NCBI GenBank assembly: GCA_020027535.1
Contig: JAHRAK010000002.1
Span: 4,646-68,645, forward strand
Origin: Nitrospirales bacterium
GTDB lineage: Bacteria; Nitrospirota; Nitrospiria; Nitrospirales; UBA8639
Length of the DNA: 64,000 bases
Direction of reading: 5' to 3'
Shown here: positions 9,789 to 13,478 of the stretch, piece by piece
Layout of the letters: the number at the start of each line of letters is the position of its first letter
Numbering within the stretch: position 1 is the stretch's first letter
Translations under genes and position numbers: made by a program
The notes under the pieces: generated by a model
Database searches by the model: none
The model's input: the letters and a program-made list of their open reading frames with translations, nothing else
What the model was told of the DNA's origin: nothing

Positions 9789-10006
9789 CTACACGTCCAG
9801 ATTGTCGGCGAGGGCGGCGTTGGCCATGAGAAACTCGTACCGGGCTTCGGTGCGCTTGCCCATGAGTTCGGTGAAGGTGCGGTCGGTGTCGAGTTCATCC
9901 TGCAGCTCGACTTTGAGGAGCCGGCGCGTGGCGGGATCCAGCGTCGTCTCCTTGAGTTGTTGGGGAAACATTTCGCCGAGACCCTTGAACCGGCTGATGA
10001 CCGGCG
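9789..10006 (-). pseudogene. Orphan duplicate of the last 218 bp (72 codons plus stop) of the topoisomerase subunit-B gene
   Basis: Matches 11538-11755 with 3 mismatches, all synonymous. The 75-aa ORF 9789..10016 equals the C-terminal tail of the 668-aa ORF. Confidence 0.92.
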
Positions 10007-10321
10007 GGAGCCGCACCAGGCAGAGCAGGCGTCCACAGTGTCACAACTGGATTTGGGCTGAGCGCAAGAACTTTCCGTTTGTCTTCTGTCAGAGAGTGAC
10101 TTACTTTTTGATCATATTTCAGTATGCCTTTTCTCCTTGATGAAAGGGTCGAGAGGGGCACCGAACCACGCCGGGGAGATATCAGAAAGTCGCGAATCAT
10201 CTCAAGCGGCTCGTCCACCAAATGAACCTGTGGGGGAAAGAGGTGAGGATGTTCTTTCACGTGTCGCGAGTCGTTGAGTGTGATGGCGAGGTTTTATTCA
10301 TGCATCGTCGAGAGGTCCCGT

Positions 10322-10462
10322 CATGCTGACACCGGAAGACGAACACGCCATTCTCGCAGAAGTCCGTCTCTTACCCGACGAAATCCAACGTCAGTTCGTC
10401 TCATGGGTGCGGCTGTTGAATCGGTATTACGATCGACGGGCTGTGCCGCGTGGCCCCCACTA
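10322..10462 (+). CDS. Hypothetical small protein (46 aa) inside the duplication-bracketed cassette
   Basis: Own translation: MLTPEDEHAILAEVRLLPDEIQRQFVSWVRLLNRYYDRRAVPRGPH*. It is too short for the ORF track and has protein-like composition, but I recognise no homology. Confidence 0.3.
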
Positions 10463-10487
10463 AATCCGACCAGCCGTTAGGACCTTT

Positions 10488-10700
10488 TTGACAGAAGGGA
10501 TGACGGCAAAGGAAGCGTGGGAAAGGAGTTGCCCCATGGACTCTCACGTACATTTTTTACCCGTACAAGGCCCGGAGCTTGCCCTTGAAGTTCCCGGCGG
10601 TGTCATGGATGTCTCGGTCCGGGTGACGGTCCTCAATGCCGAAGACAGCGACAGACTGTTACACGCGTTAGCCGTCACCAGTGAGTGGGCCCTGAATTAA
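10488..10700 (+). CDS. Hypothetical protein (70 aa)
   Basis: ORF-track entry on the same strand as, and closely spaced with, the neighbouring small ORFs. No recognisable motif. Confidence 0.35.
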   Translation: MTEGMTAKEAWERSCPMDSHVHFLPVQGPELALEVPGGVMDVSVRVTVLNAEDSDRLLHALAVTSEWALN

Positions 10701-10806
10701 CCGGCCATGGCGGGCGGCCACAGAGGGGGTGAGGGAAGGAGAGAACGGCCTCACTTGAATGTCTCACCCTCCCCACCACGCCGTCGGCGTAAAGGAGGAT
10801 TGGTGA

Positions 10807-11310
10807 ATGAAACGGTACTACGTCTGTATGCACGCGCAAGACCACGGAGAGCATGAAGTCCACACGGCGGTTTGCCGGTGGATGCCGAAGACGGAGAGTC
10901 GCATTTATCTGGGCATCTTTAGTCACTGTTCCGCTGCCGTGGCGAACGCGCGTGTGCATTATGCGCACGTGACGGGGTGTCCGCATTGTTCGCCGGACGC
11001 GGCCACCCCACCGACCGAGTTTCCCCTTCCCCACCCGAGCCCGGGGCTGACGGAAGCCGAAGGCTTGGCCCAACTCCTCTGGACGTTGCAGGGCCGCGTC
11101 ACCGTCCTGCGGGAGATCATGAATGTCCTGCTGGACGCCTCACCCCAGAAAGACGCCGCGTTGACCACCCTGACGCATCTGCGCACGCTGGCCGAAGACC
11201 ACCTCGCCAGCAAGGAACACCACCCTGCCGCGACCGAGGCCGACACGTACTTCACCCTCGGGGAGCTTCAGATGATCACCGAACTCACAGACGTGGCCAC
11301 CCGTGAGTGA
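10807..11310 (+). CDS. Hypothetical Cys/His-rich protein (167 aa), with a probable N-terminal metal-binding module and a helical C-terminal half
   Basis: The N-terminus YYVCMHAQDHGEHEVHTAVCRWMP...YLGIFSHCSAAVANARVHYAHVTGCPHCS has four Cys and several His in a CxH...C...CxxC layout. GGAGGA lies upstream (10795-10800). Confidence 0.55.
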   Translation: MKRYYVCMHAQDHGEHEVHTAVCRWMPKTESRIYLGIFSHCSAAVANARVHYAHVTGCPHCSPDAATPPTEFPLPHPSPGLTEAEGLAQLLWTLQGRVTVLREIMNVLLDASPQKDAALTTLTHLRTLAEDHLASKEHHPAATEADTYFTLGELQMITELTDVATRE

Positions 11311-11432
11311 CGGCGACGAATGGCTGGTCTTGAGAAGTCAGTCTCCAGACAAATTGTGACTAAAGCATATAAATCCCAAGAGTAGCCATCTCATCAGGAA
11401 CACGTCGCGGGCCGCATGCTCACGGCCACGGC

Positions 11433-11470
11433 ACAAGAGAAAGGCAGCCATGGGGCTGCCTTTCTCTTGT
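11433..11470. terminator. Perfect 17-bp-stem hairpin (acaagagaaaggcagcc-atgg-ggctgcctttctcttgt)
   Basis: Read directly. It lies between the 167-aa ORF and the end of the topoisomerase-B gene. There is no U-tract, so its terminator function is uncertain. Confidence 0.35.
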
Positions 11471-11494
11471 CACGCCACATTCCCGCAGCAGGTC

Positions 11495-11520
11495 GGATTC
11501 GTAGGTCGGGTTAGCGCAGC
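11495..11520 (-). terminator. Hairpin GTCGGGTTA-N8-TAACCCGAC immediately downstream of the subunit-B stop
   Basis: 9-bp stem located 18 nt after the stop at 11538. The motif is of the widespread REP type and lacks a U-tract. Confidence 0.3.
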
Positions 11521-11537
11521 GTAACCCGACAGCGGGC

Positions 11538-13478
11538 CTACACGTCCAGATTGTCGGCGAGGGCGGCGTTAGCCATGAGAAACTCGTACCGGGCTTCGGT
11601 GCGCTTGCCCATGAGTTCGGTGAAAGTGCGGTCGGTGTCGAGTTCATCCTGCAGCTCGACTTTGAGGAGCCGCCGCGTGGCGGGATCCAGCGTCGTCTCC
11701 TTGAGTTGTTGGGGAAACATTTCGCCGAGACCCTTGAACCGGCTGATGACCGGCGTGGTCCTGCCGTCGGCTGCGGCCAGAATGCGTTCTTTCTCTTCAT
11801 CCGTTCCCGCCCAATGCACGGTCTTGCCCGCGTCGATGCGGTAGAGCGGCGGTTGGGCAATGTAGACGTGCCCGTGTGTGATCAAGTCCGGGACATGCCG
11901 GAAAAAGAAGGTGAGCAGCAACGTGCTGATGTGGTAGCCGTCCACGTCCGCGTCCATGAGCAGAATGACTTTGTGGTAGCGCAATTTCTTCAGATCGAAC
12001 TCCCGCCCGATTCCGCAGCCCAGGACTTTGACCAGGTCCGCCAACTCCTTGTTCTCGACCACCTTGCCGAGGGTGAGTTCCTCGGTGTTCAGCACCTTGC
12101 CCCGGATGGGGAAAATCGCCTGGGTTTTCAGATCGCGGCCCTGCTTCGCGGTGCCTCCGGCGGAATCACCCTCCACCACGAACAACTCGCTGAGTTCGGG
12201 GTCCGTGCTTTGGCAGTCGGCCAGTTTGCCCGGCAGGTTCAGGCGATGGCTGACCGCGGATTTGCGGATGACGGCTTTCGACGCCTCACGGGACGCTTCC
12301 CGCGCGCGCGCCGCCAGAATCATGCGGCCGACCAGGGTTTCGGCGATGCTTTGATTTTCGTGCAGAAAGTTTTCCACGGCCGGGCGCAGGGCGTTGTCCA
12401 CGAGCCCTTGCACCTCGGGATTGTTGAGCCGTTCCTTGGTCTGCCCCTGAAATTGTGGGTTCAGGATGAGCACGCTCAGGACGCAGGCCATGCCTTCGCG
12501 GATGTCTTCGGCCTGGACGCTGAGCCCTTTCGGCGTGAGGTTGTGCGTCTCCATGTACTGACGCATGGCTTTCACGATGCCGTTCCGCAGGCCTGACTCA
12601 TGCGTGCCGCCGTTCGGCGTGGGCACGCCGTTCACGTAACTCCGGACGAATTCCGCGGGTTCGTCCGTCCATTGCAGGGCGATTTCCATGGCGAAGCCGT
12701 CGTCGGTCGTCGCGGGTTTGCCGTTGTCGCTCAACCGGCGTTCGCAATAAAACACGAAGTCCGCGGTGGATTTGTGGCCGCGATCCCTGACGAGCTTGGT
12801 GAGGTATTCTTCAATGCCCTGTTCATGGACGAAGTTGTGCGTGTGCTGCGAAGGACCGTCCTTGAAGGTGATCTTGAGTCCTTTGTGAAGATAGGATTTG
12901 GCCTCCAGGGTGTCCTGCAACAGGGTGGAGTCGAAGGTCGTCTGCTTTCCGAAAATGCCCGGGTCCGGGCGAAAATACACCGACGTGCCCGTGCCCCGCA
13001 CCGCGTTTCCCTTGGTGACCGGCCCCAGGGGTTTGCCGGCCCGGTACCGTTGCTGCCACTCGTGCCCGTGCCGTTTGACCGTGACCTCCAGATGATCGGA
13101 TAAGGCATTGACCACCGAGGCGCCGACCCCGTGCAAGCCGCCCGAGTGGATGTAGCTGCCGGTTTCGAATTTCCCGCCGGCGTGGAGTGTCGTCATGATG
13201 ATTTCCAGCGCCGACTTTTTGTATTTCTTGTGCTGATCCACCGGAATGCCGCGGCCGTTGTCGGTGACGCGGATGCCGCCGCCGTTCCTGTCGAGTTCGA
13301 CCGTGATCGTCGTGGCATACCCGTTCATGACCTCGTCGATGGCATTATCCAGAATTTCCCACACGAGATGGTGCAACCCGGTCTTGTCCGTCCCCCCGAT
13401 ATACATCGCCGGCCTCCGCCGAACCGGATCAATCCCCTCCAGAACCAGAATCTCACTCGCGTCGTATTTCTTGGTCAT
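11538..13478 (-). CDS. Type IIA DNA topoisomerase subunit B (DNA gyrase GyrB / topoisomerase IV ParE family), 646 aa
   Basis: Motifs seen: [69 protein letters not shown] and EGDSAGG (Toprim). The start is taken at MTKKYD (ATG 13478), which overlaps the upstream stop. The longer track ORF reaches 13544. Confidence 0.92.

What the first reader, a model, noticed from the sequence alone, without database searches (positions are those of the whole stretch)
9789..11755. 218-bp direct repeat of the topoisomerase subunit-B 3' end brackets a 1.5-kb cassette of orphan small ORFs
Positions 9789-10006 and 11538-11755 are the same 218 bp. I count 3 mismatches (9822/11571, 9876/11625, 9924/11673). All are synonymous, since both copies translate to ...[71 protein letters not shown]. 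The repeat begins exactly at the stop codon. The 11538-11755 copy is the real end of the 646-aa gene. The 9789-10006 copy is an orphan stub, and an in-frame GTG at 10016 would give a 75-aa tail peptide. The 1531 bp in between carry three small ORFs on the opposite strand and a perfect 17-bp-stem hairpin, with no integrase or transposase. Long direct repeats of a gene 3' end flanking unrelated DNA are the classic footprint of Campbell-type or site-specific integration of a circular element that carries a copy of its target. I know of no described element family that targets gyrB/parE. The stub also sits at the boundary with the GC-rich PKS block.
Basis: partly seen in the sequence, partly recalled or inferred. 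Interest (0 to 1): 0.7.

Follow-up and report, generated by a model that had tools for sequence, protein, structure and literature searches.

The report
Foreign cassette inserted at topoisomerase gene end
A 1.5-kb piece of foreign DNA sits in the tail of an essential topoisomerase gene of a Nitrospirales bacterium; it arrived with its own replacement copy of the gene's last 218 bases, leaving the original tail behind as a dead stub, which is a real but already described kind of insertion footprint.

Summary
Positions 9789-10006 and 11538-11755 are a 218-bp direct repeat with 3 synonymous mismatches, starting exactly at the stop codon of a 646-aa type IIA topoisomerase B-subunit gene.

About 20 related Nitrospirales species have the empty site: gene, then about 400 bp of spacer, then the same PKS gene. 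The 1.5-kb segment is absent from all 79 related loci. An independent Logan assembly of the reads reproduces the stub|insert junction.

The stub keeps the ancestral alleles and the ancestral downstream terminator. The working copy carries three derived alleles and a different downstream sequence. So the working gene end was imported with the cargo and the stub is the displaced original.

Two other Nitrospirales lineages (L059, L041) show the same architecture at the same gene, with different cargo. Their repeats begin at different points (-98 and -70 nt from the stop, against -218 here).

No integrase, transposase or terminal inverted repeat was found.

Best reading: recombination anchored on one homologous flank (Campbell-type single crossover, or homology-facilitated illegitimate recombination). 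This matches the published "insertion with long target duplication".

The PKS block is the ancestral neighbour, not an island edge. Cargo function is unknown. Interest is moderate to low.

The parts
9392..9788 (-). Ancestral spacer between the topoisomerase B gene and the PKS gene. It contains the ancestral terminator-like hairpin at 9749-9772 and a promoter-like site at 9484-9456 for the PKS gene.
   Evidence: Homologous to the DNA that directly follows the gene's stop codon in relatives. The first 50 nt after the stop are 94% identical in L004 and L034 and 90% over 63 nt in L003. Hairpin energy -22.6 kcal/mol, z=-3.0. Terminator-like and promoter-like hits.
9789..10006 (-). Stub: the displaced original last 71 codons plus stop of the topoisomerase B gene, now cut off from the gene body.
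   Evidence: It carries the alleles C, C, C shared by nearly all of 73 relatives at the three mismatch positions, and it is contiguous with the ancestral flank. It matches DNA_gyraseB_C at E=5.5e-25. By reading, I see no Shine-Dalgarno-like sequence before the in-frame GTG at 10016.
10007..10322 (+). Left end of the foreign insert: a non-coding leader with 52% GC. The position 10006|10007 is the novel junction.
   Evidence: No homologue in any of 79 related loci. The junction is reproduced in Logan contig L001. No Rfam match. No terminal inverted repeat with the right end above shuffled controls.
10323..10463 (+). ORF46, an orphan small ORF in the cargo.
   Evidence: Present only in this genome and in its Logan contig. 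No family match in Pfam, NCBIfam, PHROGs or PADLOC.
10488..10700 (+). ORF70, an orphan small ORF in the cargo. It was called as 54 aa from the ATG at 10536 in the Logan contig.
   Evidence: No family match.
10807..11310 (+). ORF167, the cargo gene. Residues 1-65 belong to a widespread family of about 68-aa proteins with conserved H, C and GCxxC positions. The C-terminal 100 residues are an orphan.
   Evidence: phrog_4298 at E=3.9e-15. 500 representative proteins at E<=0.001, nearly all matching residues 1-65. AlphaFold2 model with pLDDT 91 and no significant PDB or BFVD fold match. The full-length protein is unique among 5.8 billion clusters.
11433..11470 (.). Perfect 17-bp-stem hairpin between the convergent ORF167 and the topoisomerase gene. 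It is a probable bidirectional terminator brought in with the cargo.
   Evidence: -36 and -38.7 kcal/mol, z about -8 on both strands. It is single-copy in the window. There is no T-run, so the terminator role is inferred.
11501..11537 (-). REP-like palindrome (stem 11505-11530) plus a short spacer, directly after the working gene's stop codon.
   Evidence: The same palindrome family sits at the same position, right after the stop codon, in relatives L002 and L071. It also occurs elsewhere in L002, L005, L012 and L021. It is the only part of 10007-11537 with homologues in relatives.
11538..11755 (-). Working copy of the gene's 3' end, inferred to have been imported together with the cargo.
   Evidence: It carries derived alleles G, T, T at the three mismatch positions. 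The G is also seen in L071, L034 and L009. Its downstream DNA differs from the ancestral flank. It is in frame with the gene body.
11538..13478 (-). Type IIA topoisomerase B-subunit gene (gyrB/parE family, 646 aa), the target of the insertion. The A-subunit gene lies at 14070-16514(-).
   Evidence: Pfam and NCBIfam matches. 77-97% amino-acid identity to 79 Nitrospirales loci.

Best explanation
This is a real insertion. About 1.5 kb of accessory DNA (10007 to about 11500: three small ORFs and a strong hairpin) entered the chromosome together with a surrogate copy of the last 218 bp of the topoisomerase B gene and the REP-like element that follows that gene in some relatives.

The incoming DNA most likely came from a closely related Nitrospirales genome in which this cargo already lay just downstream of the same gene. 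Only one flank, the conserved gene end, was homologous to the recipient. Integration therefore ran through that single homology. It was either a RecA-type single crossover of a circularised fragment (Campbell type), or homologous pairing at the gene end plus an illegitimate join at the far end (homology-facilitated illegitimate recombination).

Either route fuses the imported 3' end to the resident gene body, so the essential gene stays intact. It pushes the resident 3' end, with its own terminator and the PKS gene behind it, to the far side of the insert as a non-functional stub.

The repeat ends at the stop codon because donor and recipient are alike only within the coding sequence. The repeat begins wherever the illegitimate or circularisation junction happened to fall.

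Shown: the insertion, the empty sites, which copy is ancestral, the absence of recombinase genes, and the recurrence in other lineages.
Inferred: the recombination route, the related donor, and the circular or linear form of the incoming DNA.
For: 1. Empty sites. In relatives the gene's stop codon is followed by the homologue of window 9392-9788 and then by the PKS gene. Window 10007-11500 has no homologue in any of the 79 related loci.

2. Polarity. The stub has the ancestral alleles at all three mismatches and the ancestral downstream terminator, as in L003, L004 and L034. The working copy has derived alleles and a different downstream sequence, a REP-like element as in L002 and L071.

3. 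Divergence in place is unlikely. All three changes are synonymous (chance 0.014). All three lie on the working copy, which is unlikely (about 0.007) if the two copies had diverged in place with the stub evolving neutrally.

4. Close donor. The two copies are nearer to each other (98.6%) than to any of 73 species (at most 96.3%). Cargo GC (58.2%) and the third-position GC of ORF167 (0.77) are host-like. Both point to a close donor.

5. Recurrence. L059 (92-nt repeat around an 0.8-kb DUF4258/DUF2283-like pair) and L041 (76-nt repeat around 3.5 kb with nSTAND1-FGE and DUF4062 genes) have the same layout. Empty sites exist in L074 and in L080, L070, L067 and L044. In both, the stub keeps the ancestral last codons and flank, and the working copy has a new end and new downstream DNA.

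6. Boundaries. The repeats begin at different points (-218, -98, -70) but always end within about 8 nt of the stop codon. This is expected if homology, not a recombinase core site, sets the limits.

7. No mobility machinery. There is no integrase or transposase in any of the three inserts. There are no terminal inverted repeats. The window is otherwise a housekeeping region with mreBCD, clpPX, tig, topA and dprA.

8. Experimental precedent. A single crossover of a circular molecule carrying part of a gene end produced duplications of 109-950 bp of that gene end in E. coli (PMC3240628). Insertions with long, variable target duplications and no mobility genes are documented in many bacteria, mostly naturally competent ones (PMC2853133).

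9. Independent support for the junction. The junction at 10006|10007 is present in an independent assembly of the reads.
Against: - No donor genome was found, and no copy of the cargo in another context. ORF167 is unique in 5.8 billion protein clusters, and the metagenome scan hit only L004's own record.
- The near-identity of the two copies is also what an in-place duplication would give. The statistical argument against that rests on only three substitutions.
- A recombinase acting in trans cannot be excluded.
- The search for integrases outside the inserts was crude. It used a regular expression with no positive control, and only 25 of 55 Pfam families were listed for the window.
- The flanks of the related loci stop at 10 kb, so larger integrase-bearing elements at this site would have been missed.
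- The stubs in L059 and L041 are decayed (89% and 84% identity), so the points where their repeats begin may not be original.
- Whether the sample holds the integrated form, or an empty site plus a 1749-bp circle, cannot be decided without the reads.
Confidence: 0.5

Rival explanations
1. The insert is a remnant or a non-autonomous derivative of a site-specific integrative element (prophage, ICE or genomic island; CIME-like or satellite-like). Its attP carries the gene's 3' end, as e14 and phage 21 do at icd. An integrase encoded elsewhere, or since deleted, did the integration.
For: Direct repeats of a gene 3' end around foreign DNA, with a surrogate end that keeps the gene intact, are the textbook footprint (my own knowledge of e14/phage 21 at icd). 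Empty sites exist in relatives. The same gene is hit in three lineages. The N-terminal domain of ORF167 belongs to a phage protein family, phrog_4298. The cargo in L059 and L041 is toxin-antitoxin-like or defence-like, as is typical for islands.
Against: There is no recombinase in any of the three inserts (0.8, 1.5 and 3.5 kb), and none was detected in the 64-kb window or the 10-kb flanks. The repeats begin at different points (-218, -98, -70), and the inferred crossover positions differ: upstream of -136 in the window, and probably near the stop in L059. The imported end is 98.6% identical to the host's own and carries a chromosomal REP-like element right after the stop, as in sister species. 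That looks like chromosomal donor DNA rather than a long-evolving attP. A similar 326-bp duplication occurs at a different gene in L004.
Confidence: 0.2
2. The event is an in-place insertion with long target duplication. Foreign DNA was captured at a break just after the stop codon, and repair synthesis copied 218 bp of the resident gene end. Both copies then come from the host, and the three differences and the REP-like element arose later.
For: The two copies are each other's closest relatives. The phenomenon is documented with repeats of 30 to about 420 bp and without mobility genes (PMC2853133). REP-like elements turn over rapidly right after this stop codon in relatives.
Against: Three of three substitutions fall on the selected copy and none on the neutral stub (about 0.007). 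In L059 the last 9 nt of the working copy (GATGTGTGA) differ at four positions from the stub and from relative L074 (both GACATCTAA). That is hard to explain by drift in an essential gene. Three independent duplications that all end at the stop codon would be a coincidence under a random duplication model.
Confidence: 0.12
3. The arrangement is an assembly artefact or a mixed population. The chromosome has the empty site (gene body, then the C, C, C copy, then the ancestral flank). The insert plus the G, T, T copy is a separate 1749-bp circle or tandem array, or belongs to a co-occurring strain. The assembler threaded them into one path through the 82-bp stretch (9925-10006) that is identical in both copies.
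For: The source is a metagenome-type contig from a community rich in related Nitrospirales. The Logan contig breaks 30 nt into the repeat on one side and inside the REP-like element on the other, so a k=31 graph does not resolve the linkage. Under this reading everything on the chromosome would be ancestral, which is economical.
Against: The junction of gene position -218 with the cargo is real in the reads, so a truncated second copy of the gene end exists in any case. A 1.75-kb circle encodes no replication function. The three changes in a non-functional circle copy would have to be synonymous by chance (0.014). L059 comes from a contig-level assembly of several megabases and L041 from a short-read MAG. 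Both show the same integrated architecture with decayed stubs, which cannot be graph artefacts.
Confidence: 0.1
4. The insert is a transposon or insertion sequence with an unusually long target-site duplication.
For: Direct repeats flank the insert.
Against: There is no transposase. There are no terminal inverted repeats above shuffled controls. A 218-bp duplication is far beyond known target-site duplications. The insert is single-copy in the window and absent from the related loci.
Confidence: 0.02

Closest known systems
Insertion with long target duplication (Nobusato et al. 2000; Furuta, Abe & Kobayashi 2010, PMC2853133)
   Same: Small inserts of less than 20 kb. Direct repeats of 30 to about 420 bp that align to a single copy in an empty-site genome. 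No transposase or integrase. Variable repeat length. Some repeats overlap the 3' end of a gene. Defence-type cargo, as in the L059 and L041 cases here.
   Different: The described cases carry restriction-modification genes, and their authors suspect the restriction enzyme's own DNA breakage. Here the cargo is three small ORFs of unknown function, and a toxin-antitoxin-like pair and an nSTAND/DUF4062 system in the two other lineages. Here the repeat always ends at the stop codon of an essential gene, and the working copy appears to be imported rather than copied in place.
Campbell-type single-crossover integration of a circular molecule carrying part of a gene end, and homology-facilitated illegitimate recombination (E. 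coli conjugation study, PMC3240628)
   Same: It produces exactly this product: gene, then insert, then a partial duplicate of the gene end (109-950 bp in the experiments). No dedicated recombinase is needed, and the length of the duplication varies.
   Different: Those are laboratory events with engineered plasmids. Here the events are natural, fixed in a lineage, and seen repeatedly at one chromosomal gene. The form of the incoming DNA is unknown.
Prophage e14 / phage 21 integration into icd of E. coli
   Same: The element brings a surrogate 3' end of a housekeeping gene that differs from the host's mostly by synonymous changes. The original 3' end is left as a pseudogene stub at the far end of the element.
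   Different: e14 and phage 21 encode their own integrase and recombine at a fixed core site. Here no integrase was found, and the points where the repeats begin differ between events.
Integrase-less remnants flanked by att sites (CIMEs of the ICESt1/ICESt3 family at fda; cargo-only remnants in tycheposon islands of Prochlorococcus; from my own knowledge)
   Same: Short cargo segments lie between direct repeats of a gene's 3' end and carry no recombination genes.
   Different: Those repeats are short, fixed att cores, and related autonomous elements with integrases are known at the same site. None was found here.

Membership tests
Insertion with long target duplication (criteria of PMC2853133) | The insert is shorter than 20 kb and is flanked by direct repeats longer than 30 bp. 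| tested here: met
   1531-bp insert with 218-bp repeats at 98.6% identity.
Insertion with long target duplication (criteria of PMC2853133) | An empty-site genome exists in which both repeats align to a single copy and both flanks are conserved. | tested here: met
   L002-L016, L034, L071 and others have one gene end followed by the homologue of 9392-9788 and the PKS gene.
Insertion with long target duplication (criteria of PMC2853133) | No other mobile-element genes lie in or next to the insert. | tested here: met
   No recombinase or transposase family for any insert ORF. The neighbours are the topoisomerase and PKS genes.
Insertion with long target duplication (criteria of PMC2853133) | The cargo is a restriction-modification gene complex. 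| tested here: not met
   The cargo ORFs have no restriction-modification or PADLOC match. The footprint is the same but the cargo class differs.
Integrase-mediated integrative element (prophage / ICE / genomic island, e14-like) | A tyrosine or serine recombinase is encoded within the repeat-bounded element. | tested here: not met
   No match in Pfam, NCBIfam or PHROGs for any ORF between the repeats. The same holds for L059 and L041.
Integrase-mediated integrative element (prophage / ICE / genomic island, e14-like) | Independent insertions share a fixed crossover or core site. | tested here: not met
   The repeats begin at -218, -98 and -70 nt from the stop in the three lineages. Caveat: two of the stubs are decayed.
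Integrase-mediated integrative element (prophage / ICE / genomic island, e14-like) | The element supplies a surrogate gene end so that the target gene stays intact. | tested here: met
   The working copy has derived alleles and new downstream DNA. The stub has the ancestral alleles and flank.
Integrase-mediated integrative element (prophage / ICE / genomic island, e14-like) | The element excises to a circular form with a reconstituted attP. | not testable with these tools
   This needs reads or outward-facing PCR. The k=31 Logan graph is compatible with both the integrated and the excised form.
Campbell-type homologous single crossover / homology-facilitated illegitimate recombination | The direct repeats equal the stretch of homology between incoming and resident DNA. 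Their length varies between events, and they end where homology ends. | tested here: met
   Repeat lengths are 218, 92 and 76 nt. The end always falls within about 8 nt of the stop codon, beyond which relatives are not alignable.
Campbell-type homologous single crossover / homology-facilitated illegitimate recombination | The process depends on RecA-type homologous recombination, and a donor molecule carries the gene end next to the cargo. | not testable with these tools
   No donor was found. dprA is present in the window, which is only a weak hint of competence.
Transposon / insertion sequence | A transposase, terminal inverted repeats and a short target-site duplication. | tested here: not met
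   The duplication is 218 bp.
Type IIA topoisomerase B subunit (the target gene) | HATPase_c, DNA_gyraseB, Toprim and DNA_gyraseB_C domains, paired with an A subunit. | tested here: met
   It passes the PRK05644 subfamily cut-off (783.5 against 740) but not the gyrB or parE equivalog cut-offs, so the choice between gyrase and topoisomerase IV is left open.

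The most novel reading that the evidence does not exclude
Small integrase-free cassettes of 0.8-3.5 kb spread among Nitrospirales by carrying the conserved 3' end of a neighbouring core gene as a homology address. 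Here the core gene is the essential topoisomerase B gene; in L004 it is a ParD-like gene. Recombination between the flanking repeats loops the cassette out as a circle. After uptake by another cell, a single RecA-dependent crossover re-inserts it without damaging the target gene. That would give a general, recombinase-independent life cycle for toxin-antitoxin, defence and orphan cassettes. It would also supply a mechanism for the long-unexplained insertions with long target duplication.
Probability: 0.15. Interest if true: 0.65.

Novelty: new member of a known kind. Interest (0 to 1): 0.35.

Why it matters
The finding shows how accessory genes can enter a compact symbiont-type genome inside an essential gene without harming it and without any dedicated mobility enzyme. 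It adds three natural, datable examples to a class of events whose mechanism is still open, the insertions with long target duplication. The examples are one fresh (98.6% repeat identity) and two decayed. Because the ancestral and imported copies can be told apart here, the case gives a polarity that most published examples lack. It also points to homology on a single flank as the driver. The practical value is modest: it marks both sides of the topoisomerase operon as cassette hot spots in Nitrospirales, and it warns annotators about gyrB/parE tail pseudogenes. The cargo itself remains of unknown function.

Tried and rejected
- Function of the cargo. Pfam, NCBIfam, PHROGs and PADLOC gave only phrog_4298 for the N-terminus of ORF167. 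The HMMER search of 1.8 billion representatives found a widespread family of about 68-aa proteins, plus one spurious multi-stretch hit to a 1798-aa repeat protein (P0002), which I disregard. A profile search of PDB sequences and Foldseek searches against PDB and BFVD with a confident model (pLDDT 91) gave nothing significant. Rfam gave nothing for 9300-11900.\n- Other copies of the cargo. The exact-protein look-ups found only the source contig and one Logan contig. BLAST against the 79 loci found only the REP-like element.\n- Phages or elements carrying the gene tail. A viral-contig scan with the 75-aa tail gave one unrelated 47% match in a 259-kb contig.\n- Strain-level empty or filled sites. 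The metagenome scan with the stub-flank junction returned only L004's own record. Look-ups of the 646-aa and 668-aa versions of the topoisomerase protein found no record.\n- Integrases near the site. A regular-expression screen of all loci and the window found none, but it had no positive control. A Pfam screen of 40 window ORFs showed housekeeping families, but only 25 of 55 families were listed.\n- Recombination breakpoint at the insert. An identity profile against 14 relatives was uninformative, because the topoisomerase gene is 90-95% identical to all of them.\n- Transposon ends. No terminal inverted repeats.\n- Tn7-like elements targeting parE. In the paper I opened (PMC8649781), parE refers to the toxin ParE, not the topoisomerase gene. 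One search was rejected on syntax, and a search for e14/icd papers was unproductive.\n- L077's double tblastn hit is an apparent frameshift, not a duplication.

Full report
**1. The observation**

The sequence, the repeat finder and a pairwise alignment confirm a 218-nt direct repeat at 9789-10006 and 11538-11755.
- The spacing is 1749 nt and there are three mismatches.
- It is the only direct repeat of at least 60 bp within 12 kb in the 64-kb window.
- The mismatches (9822/11571, 9876/11625, 9924/11673) are all at third codon positions and synonymous. Both copies encode the same 71 residues plus stop.
- The repeat begins exactly at the stop codon, and the base before it differs between the copies.

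The right-hand copy ends a 646-aa gene, 11538-13478(-).
- The gene has the four domains of a type IIA topoisomerase B subunit.
- It passes the NCBIfam PRK05644 cut-off but not the gyrB or parE equivalog cut-offs.
- The A-subunit gene lies upstream at 14070-16514(-).

The left-hand copy is a stub. An in-frame GTG at 10016 would give a 75-aa ORF.

The 1531 bp in between hold three + strand ORFs (46, 70 and 167 aa) and a perfect 17-bp-stem hairpin at 11433-11470 (-36 to -39 kcal/mol, z about -8).

**2. Is it real DNA?**

An independent Logan assembly of run SRR27685851 contains a 1554-bp contig identical to window 9977-11530.
- Its first 30 nt are the inner end of the repeat, followed by the insert.
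- So the novel junction at 10006|10007 exists in the reads.
- The contig stops 30 nt into the repeat on one side and inside a REP-like palindrome on the other. This is what a k=31 graph does at repeats.

The graph cannot say which copy of the repeat is joined to the gene body. The last 82 bp (9925-10006) are identical in the two copies. The assembled (integrated) path and the alternative (empty site plus a 1749-bp circle or a second strain) differ only in phasing across those 82 bp. I could not access the reads, so this remains a stated caveat.

**3. Organism and empty sites**

The B-subunit protein finds 79 loci in one-per-species genomes.
- All are Nitrospirales.
- The closest (93-97% amino-acid identity) are MAGs and complete chromosomes of one clade.

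In about 20 of them the stop codon is followed, after 50-600 bp, by the homologue of window 9392-9788 and then by the homologue of the PKS gene 3605-9391. L004 is the closest on the PKS side, at about 90% nucleotide identity.

Window 10007-11500 has no homologue in any locus. Relatives have the empty site.

The PKS block is the ancestral neighbour of the topoisomerase gene. It is not the edge of an island.

**4. Which copy is the original?**

At the three mismatch positions the stub has C, C, C, the state of nearly all 73 alignable relatives. The working copy has G, T, T. The G also occurs in L071, L034 and L009.

The downstream DNA of the two copies also differs.
- The stub is followed by the sequence CAGAACGAAAGAAGGGAGGGCGGAC...GTCCGCCC, a terminator-like hairpin. 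L004 and L034 have this directly after their single stop codon (94% identity over the first 50 nt), and L003 has it at 90% over 63 nt.
- The working copy is followed by 7 nt and a REP-like palindrome (stem GTCGGGTTA...TAACCCGAC) that sits at the same position in L002 and L071.
- Beyond the palindrome everything is foreign.

So the stub plus flank is the resident, ancestral configuration. The working 3' end came in with the cargo.

The numbers point the same way.
- Only 24% of possible substitutions in this segment are synonymous, so three of three by chance has probability 0.014.
- If the two copies had diverged in place, with the stub neutral and the working copy under purifying selection, all three changes falling on the working copy has probability about 0.007.
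- These figures rest on three sites and ignore transition bias.

The two copies are nevertheless each other's nearest relatives: 98.6% against at most 96.3% to any other species. The cargo has the GC content of the window (58.2%), and ORF167 has a host-like third-position GC. The donor was therefore a very close relative.

**5. Recurrence**

A tblastn search of the last 119 residues against all loci, and per-locus BLAST of each gene end against its own downstream DNA, found two more cases.

L059:
- A 92-nt repeat (89% identity) brackets 0.8 kb with two overlapping small ORFs. They match DUF4258 and DUF2283 weakly, below the Pfam cut-offs, and look like a toxin-antitoxin pair.
- Relative L074 has the empty site at 91.7% identity.
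- The stub keeps L074's last codons and flank (GACATCTAA GCAGTGATAGCC...).
- The working copy ends differently (GATGTGTGA) and has new downstream DNA.

L041:
- A 76-nt repeat (84% identity) brackets 3.5 kb with an nSTAND1-FGE-sulfatase protein and a DUF4062 protein.
- L080, L070, L067, L044 and others have the empty site.
- Diverged versions of the L041 cargo lie at the same locus in L073, L065, L038 and L051 without a recognisable stub.

In all three events the layout is the same: gene with a new end, then cargo, then the old end as a stub, then the ancestral flank.
- The repeat ends within about 8 nt of the stop codon each time.
- The repeats begin at different points: -218, -98 and -70 nt from the stop.
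- None of the inserts encodes a recombinase.

A fourth, analogous structure lies on the other side of the operon in L004.
- Two ParD-like genes (326-bp repeat, 93% identity) bracket a PIN_3 gene.
- HigB-like/HTH, NYN and KAP-NTPase genes follow, and then the topoisomerase gene.

Long duplications around small cassettes are thus a habit of this clade rather than a property of one target gene.

**6. What the cargo is**

ORF167 is unique as a whole. Its first 65 residues belong to a large family of stand-alone proteins of about 68 aa with conserved H, C and GCxxC positions.
- PHROGs lists the family among phage proteins as phrog_4298, at E=3.9e-15.
- An AlphaFold2 model from a 40-sequence alignment is confident (pLDDT 91). 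It has no significant match in PDB or BFVD or in PDB sequences.

ORF46 and ORF70 are orphans. The strong hairpin between the convergent ORF167 and the topoisomerase gene probably serves as a bidirectional terminator. It would replace the displaced ancestral one, but this is inferred, since there is no T-run. The function of the cargo remains unknown.

**7. Mechanism**

Transposition is excluded.
- There is no transposase and no terminal inverted repeats.
- A 218-bp duplication is far too long for a target-site duplication.

Integrase-mediated site-specific integration (the e14/phage 21-at-icd model) explains the surrogate gene end. It does not explain several other findings.
- No recombinase is present in any of three independent inserts.
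- The points where the repeats begin differ between events.
- The imported end is nearly identical to the host's and carries a chromosomal REP-like element.
- A similar duplication occurs at an unrelated gene in L004.

The best fit is integration driven by homology on one flank only. DNA from a close relative, in which the cargo already lay downstream of the topoisomerase gene, shared only the conserved gene end with the recipient.

Two routes give exactly the observed product:
- a single crossover of a circularised fragment;
- homologous pairing at the gene end plus an illegitimate join at the far end.

The repeat then ends where coding-sequence homology ends, at the stop codon. Downstream of it, relatives are hypervariable because of REP turnover. 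The repeat begins wherever the illegitimate or circularisation junction fell.

There is experimental precedent. In E. coli, most integrants of a plasmid carrying a lacZ end were single crossovers with duplications of 109-950 bp of the gene end (PMC3240628).

There is also comparative precedent. Furuta, Abe and Kobayashi describe insertion with long target duplication: repeats of 30 to about 420 bp, no mobility genes, mostly in naturally competent species, and mechanism unknown (PMC2853133).

I give the homology-driven model 0.5, a decayed or trans-mobilised site-specific element 0.2, in-place duplication 0.12, an assembly or mixture artefact 0.1 and a transposon 0.02.

**8. Comparison with the known, and novelty**

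The footprint meets the published criteria for insertion with long target duplication except for the cargo class (see the membership table). It works like a Campbell integration.

It is not a member of the integrase-bearing element families, because two of their defining features were tested and not met.

Two things are new.
- The target is the tail of an essential type IIA topoisomerase gene, hit in three Nitrospirales lineages.
- The ancestral and imported copies can be told apart clearly, which argues that the duplicated end is imported rather than copied in place.

I searched for Tn7-like elements with parE attachment sites, and a planned search for elements at gyrB/parE 3' ends was rejected on syntax and not repeated. 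In the one paper I opened (PMC8649781), parE means the toxin ParE, not the topoisomerase gene, so I found no described element aimed at this gene. This is a limited search, not proof of absence.

I classify the finding as a new member of a known kind, with moderate to low interest (0.35). The most novel reading not excluded is a recombinase-free cassette life cycle that uses core-gene tails as homology addresses. I give it probability 0.15.

Noticed in passing
window 13475-13741 (-): An 88-aa ParD-family antitoxin-like ORF (Pfam PF03693, E=7.9e-9; NCBIfam TIGR02606, 44.6 bits, just under its 46.2-bit cut-off) lies between the topoisomerase A and B genes. Its stop codon overlaps the B-subunit start codon (ATGA), which suggests translational coupling. 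No partner toxin gene is evident. ParE toxins poison gyrase, so an orphan ParD-like gene fused into a topoisomerase operon is curious. The region has homologues at this position in several relatives.
   Followed up: partly
L004 4195-5799 and 5988-9821: In the closest relative on the PKS side, two ParD-like genes (326-bp direct repeat, 93% identical, 1279 bp apart) bracket a PIN_3 gene. About 4.2 kb with HigB-like/HTH, NYN and KAP-NTPase genes separates them from the topoisomerase B gene. No A-subunit gene is adjacent. This is a second cassette hot spot with a long duplication, on the other side of the gene.
   Followed up: partly
L059 11852-12860; L041 7667-11311: There are two further insertions bracketed by direct repeats of the topoisomerase B 3' end, with empty sites in relatives. 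One has a 92-nt repeat around a DUF4258/DUF2283-like pair. The other has a 76-nt repeat around nSTAND1-FGE-sulfatase and DUF4062 genes.
   Followed up: yes
first ~110 nt after the topoisomerase B stop codon in L002-L020, and window 11501-11537: The DNA right after the stop codon (GTGTAG) is hypervariable in the clade. It is occupied by at least three different families of REP-like palindromes that end in CCTAC. Examples are GTCGGGTTACGC...CCCGACCTAC, GGGACGGCACAGGGGCCGTCCCCTAC and GGGCCGCATGAGATGCGGCCCCTAC. The GTAG/CTAC ends recall REP elements handled by RAYT transposases. No RAYT gene was looked for.
   Followed up: no
window 3605-9391 (-) and homologues in L002-L016: A 1928-aa type I PKS-like ORF directly downstream of the topoisomerase operon is syntenic in at least 15 related Nitrospirales species, but it diverges much faster (71-91% nucleotide identity) than the topoisomerase gene (90-95%). 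A second, about 68% identical PKS paralogue lies about 8 kb further on in the relatives.
   Followed up: no
L077 11593-11941: The 3' end of the topoisomerase B gene in this long-read chromosome gives two overlapping tblastn segments in different frames. This is an apparent frameshift, either a possible homopolymer error or a real pseudogenisation.
   Followed up: no
L020 and L023 (many positions): Dispersed 60-190-bp direct repeats at 80-95% identity occur many times within 22 kb, including right after the topoisomerase stop codon (L020 11934-12050, L023 11949-12060). They are probably MITE-like or REP-cluster elements.
   Followed up: no
window 10807-11001 (ORF167 residues 1-65): The widespread family of about 68-aa proteins (consensus YYVN..AQ..GDHEVH...C..LP...R.YLG.F..C..A...A...Y..V.GC..C...CH) gives a confident predicted fold (pLDDT 91) with no counterpart in PDB or BFVD. 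It has no Pfam model. It is a candidate new small metal-binding domain.
   Followed up: partly
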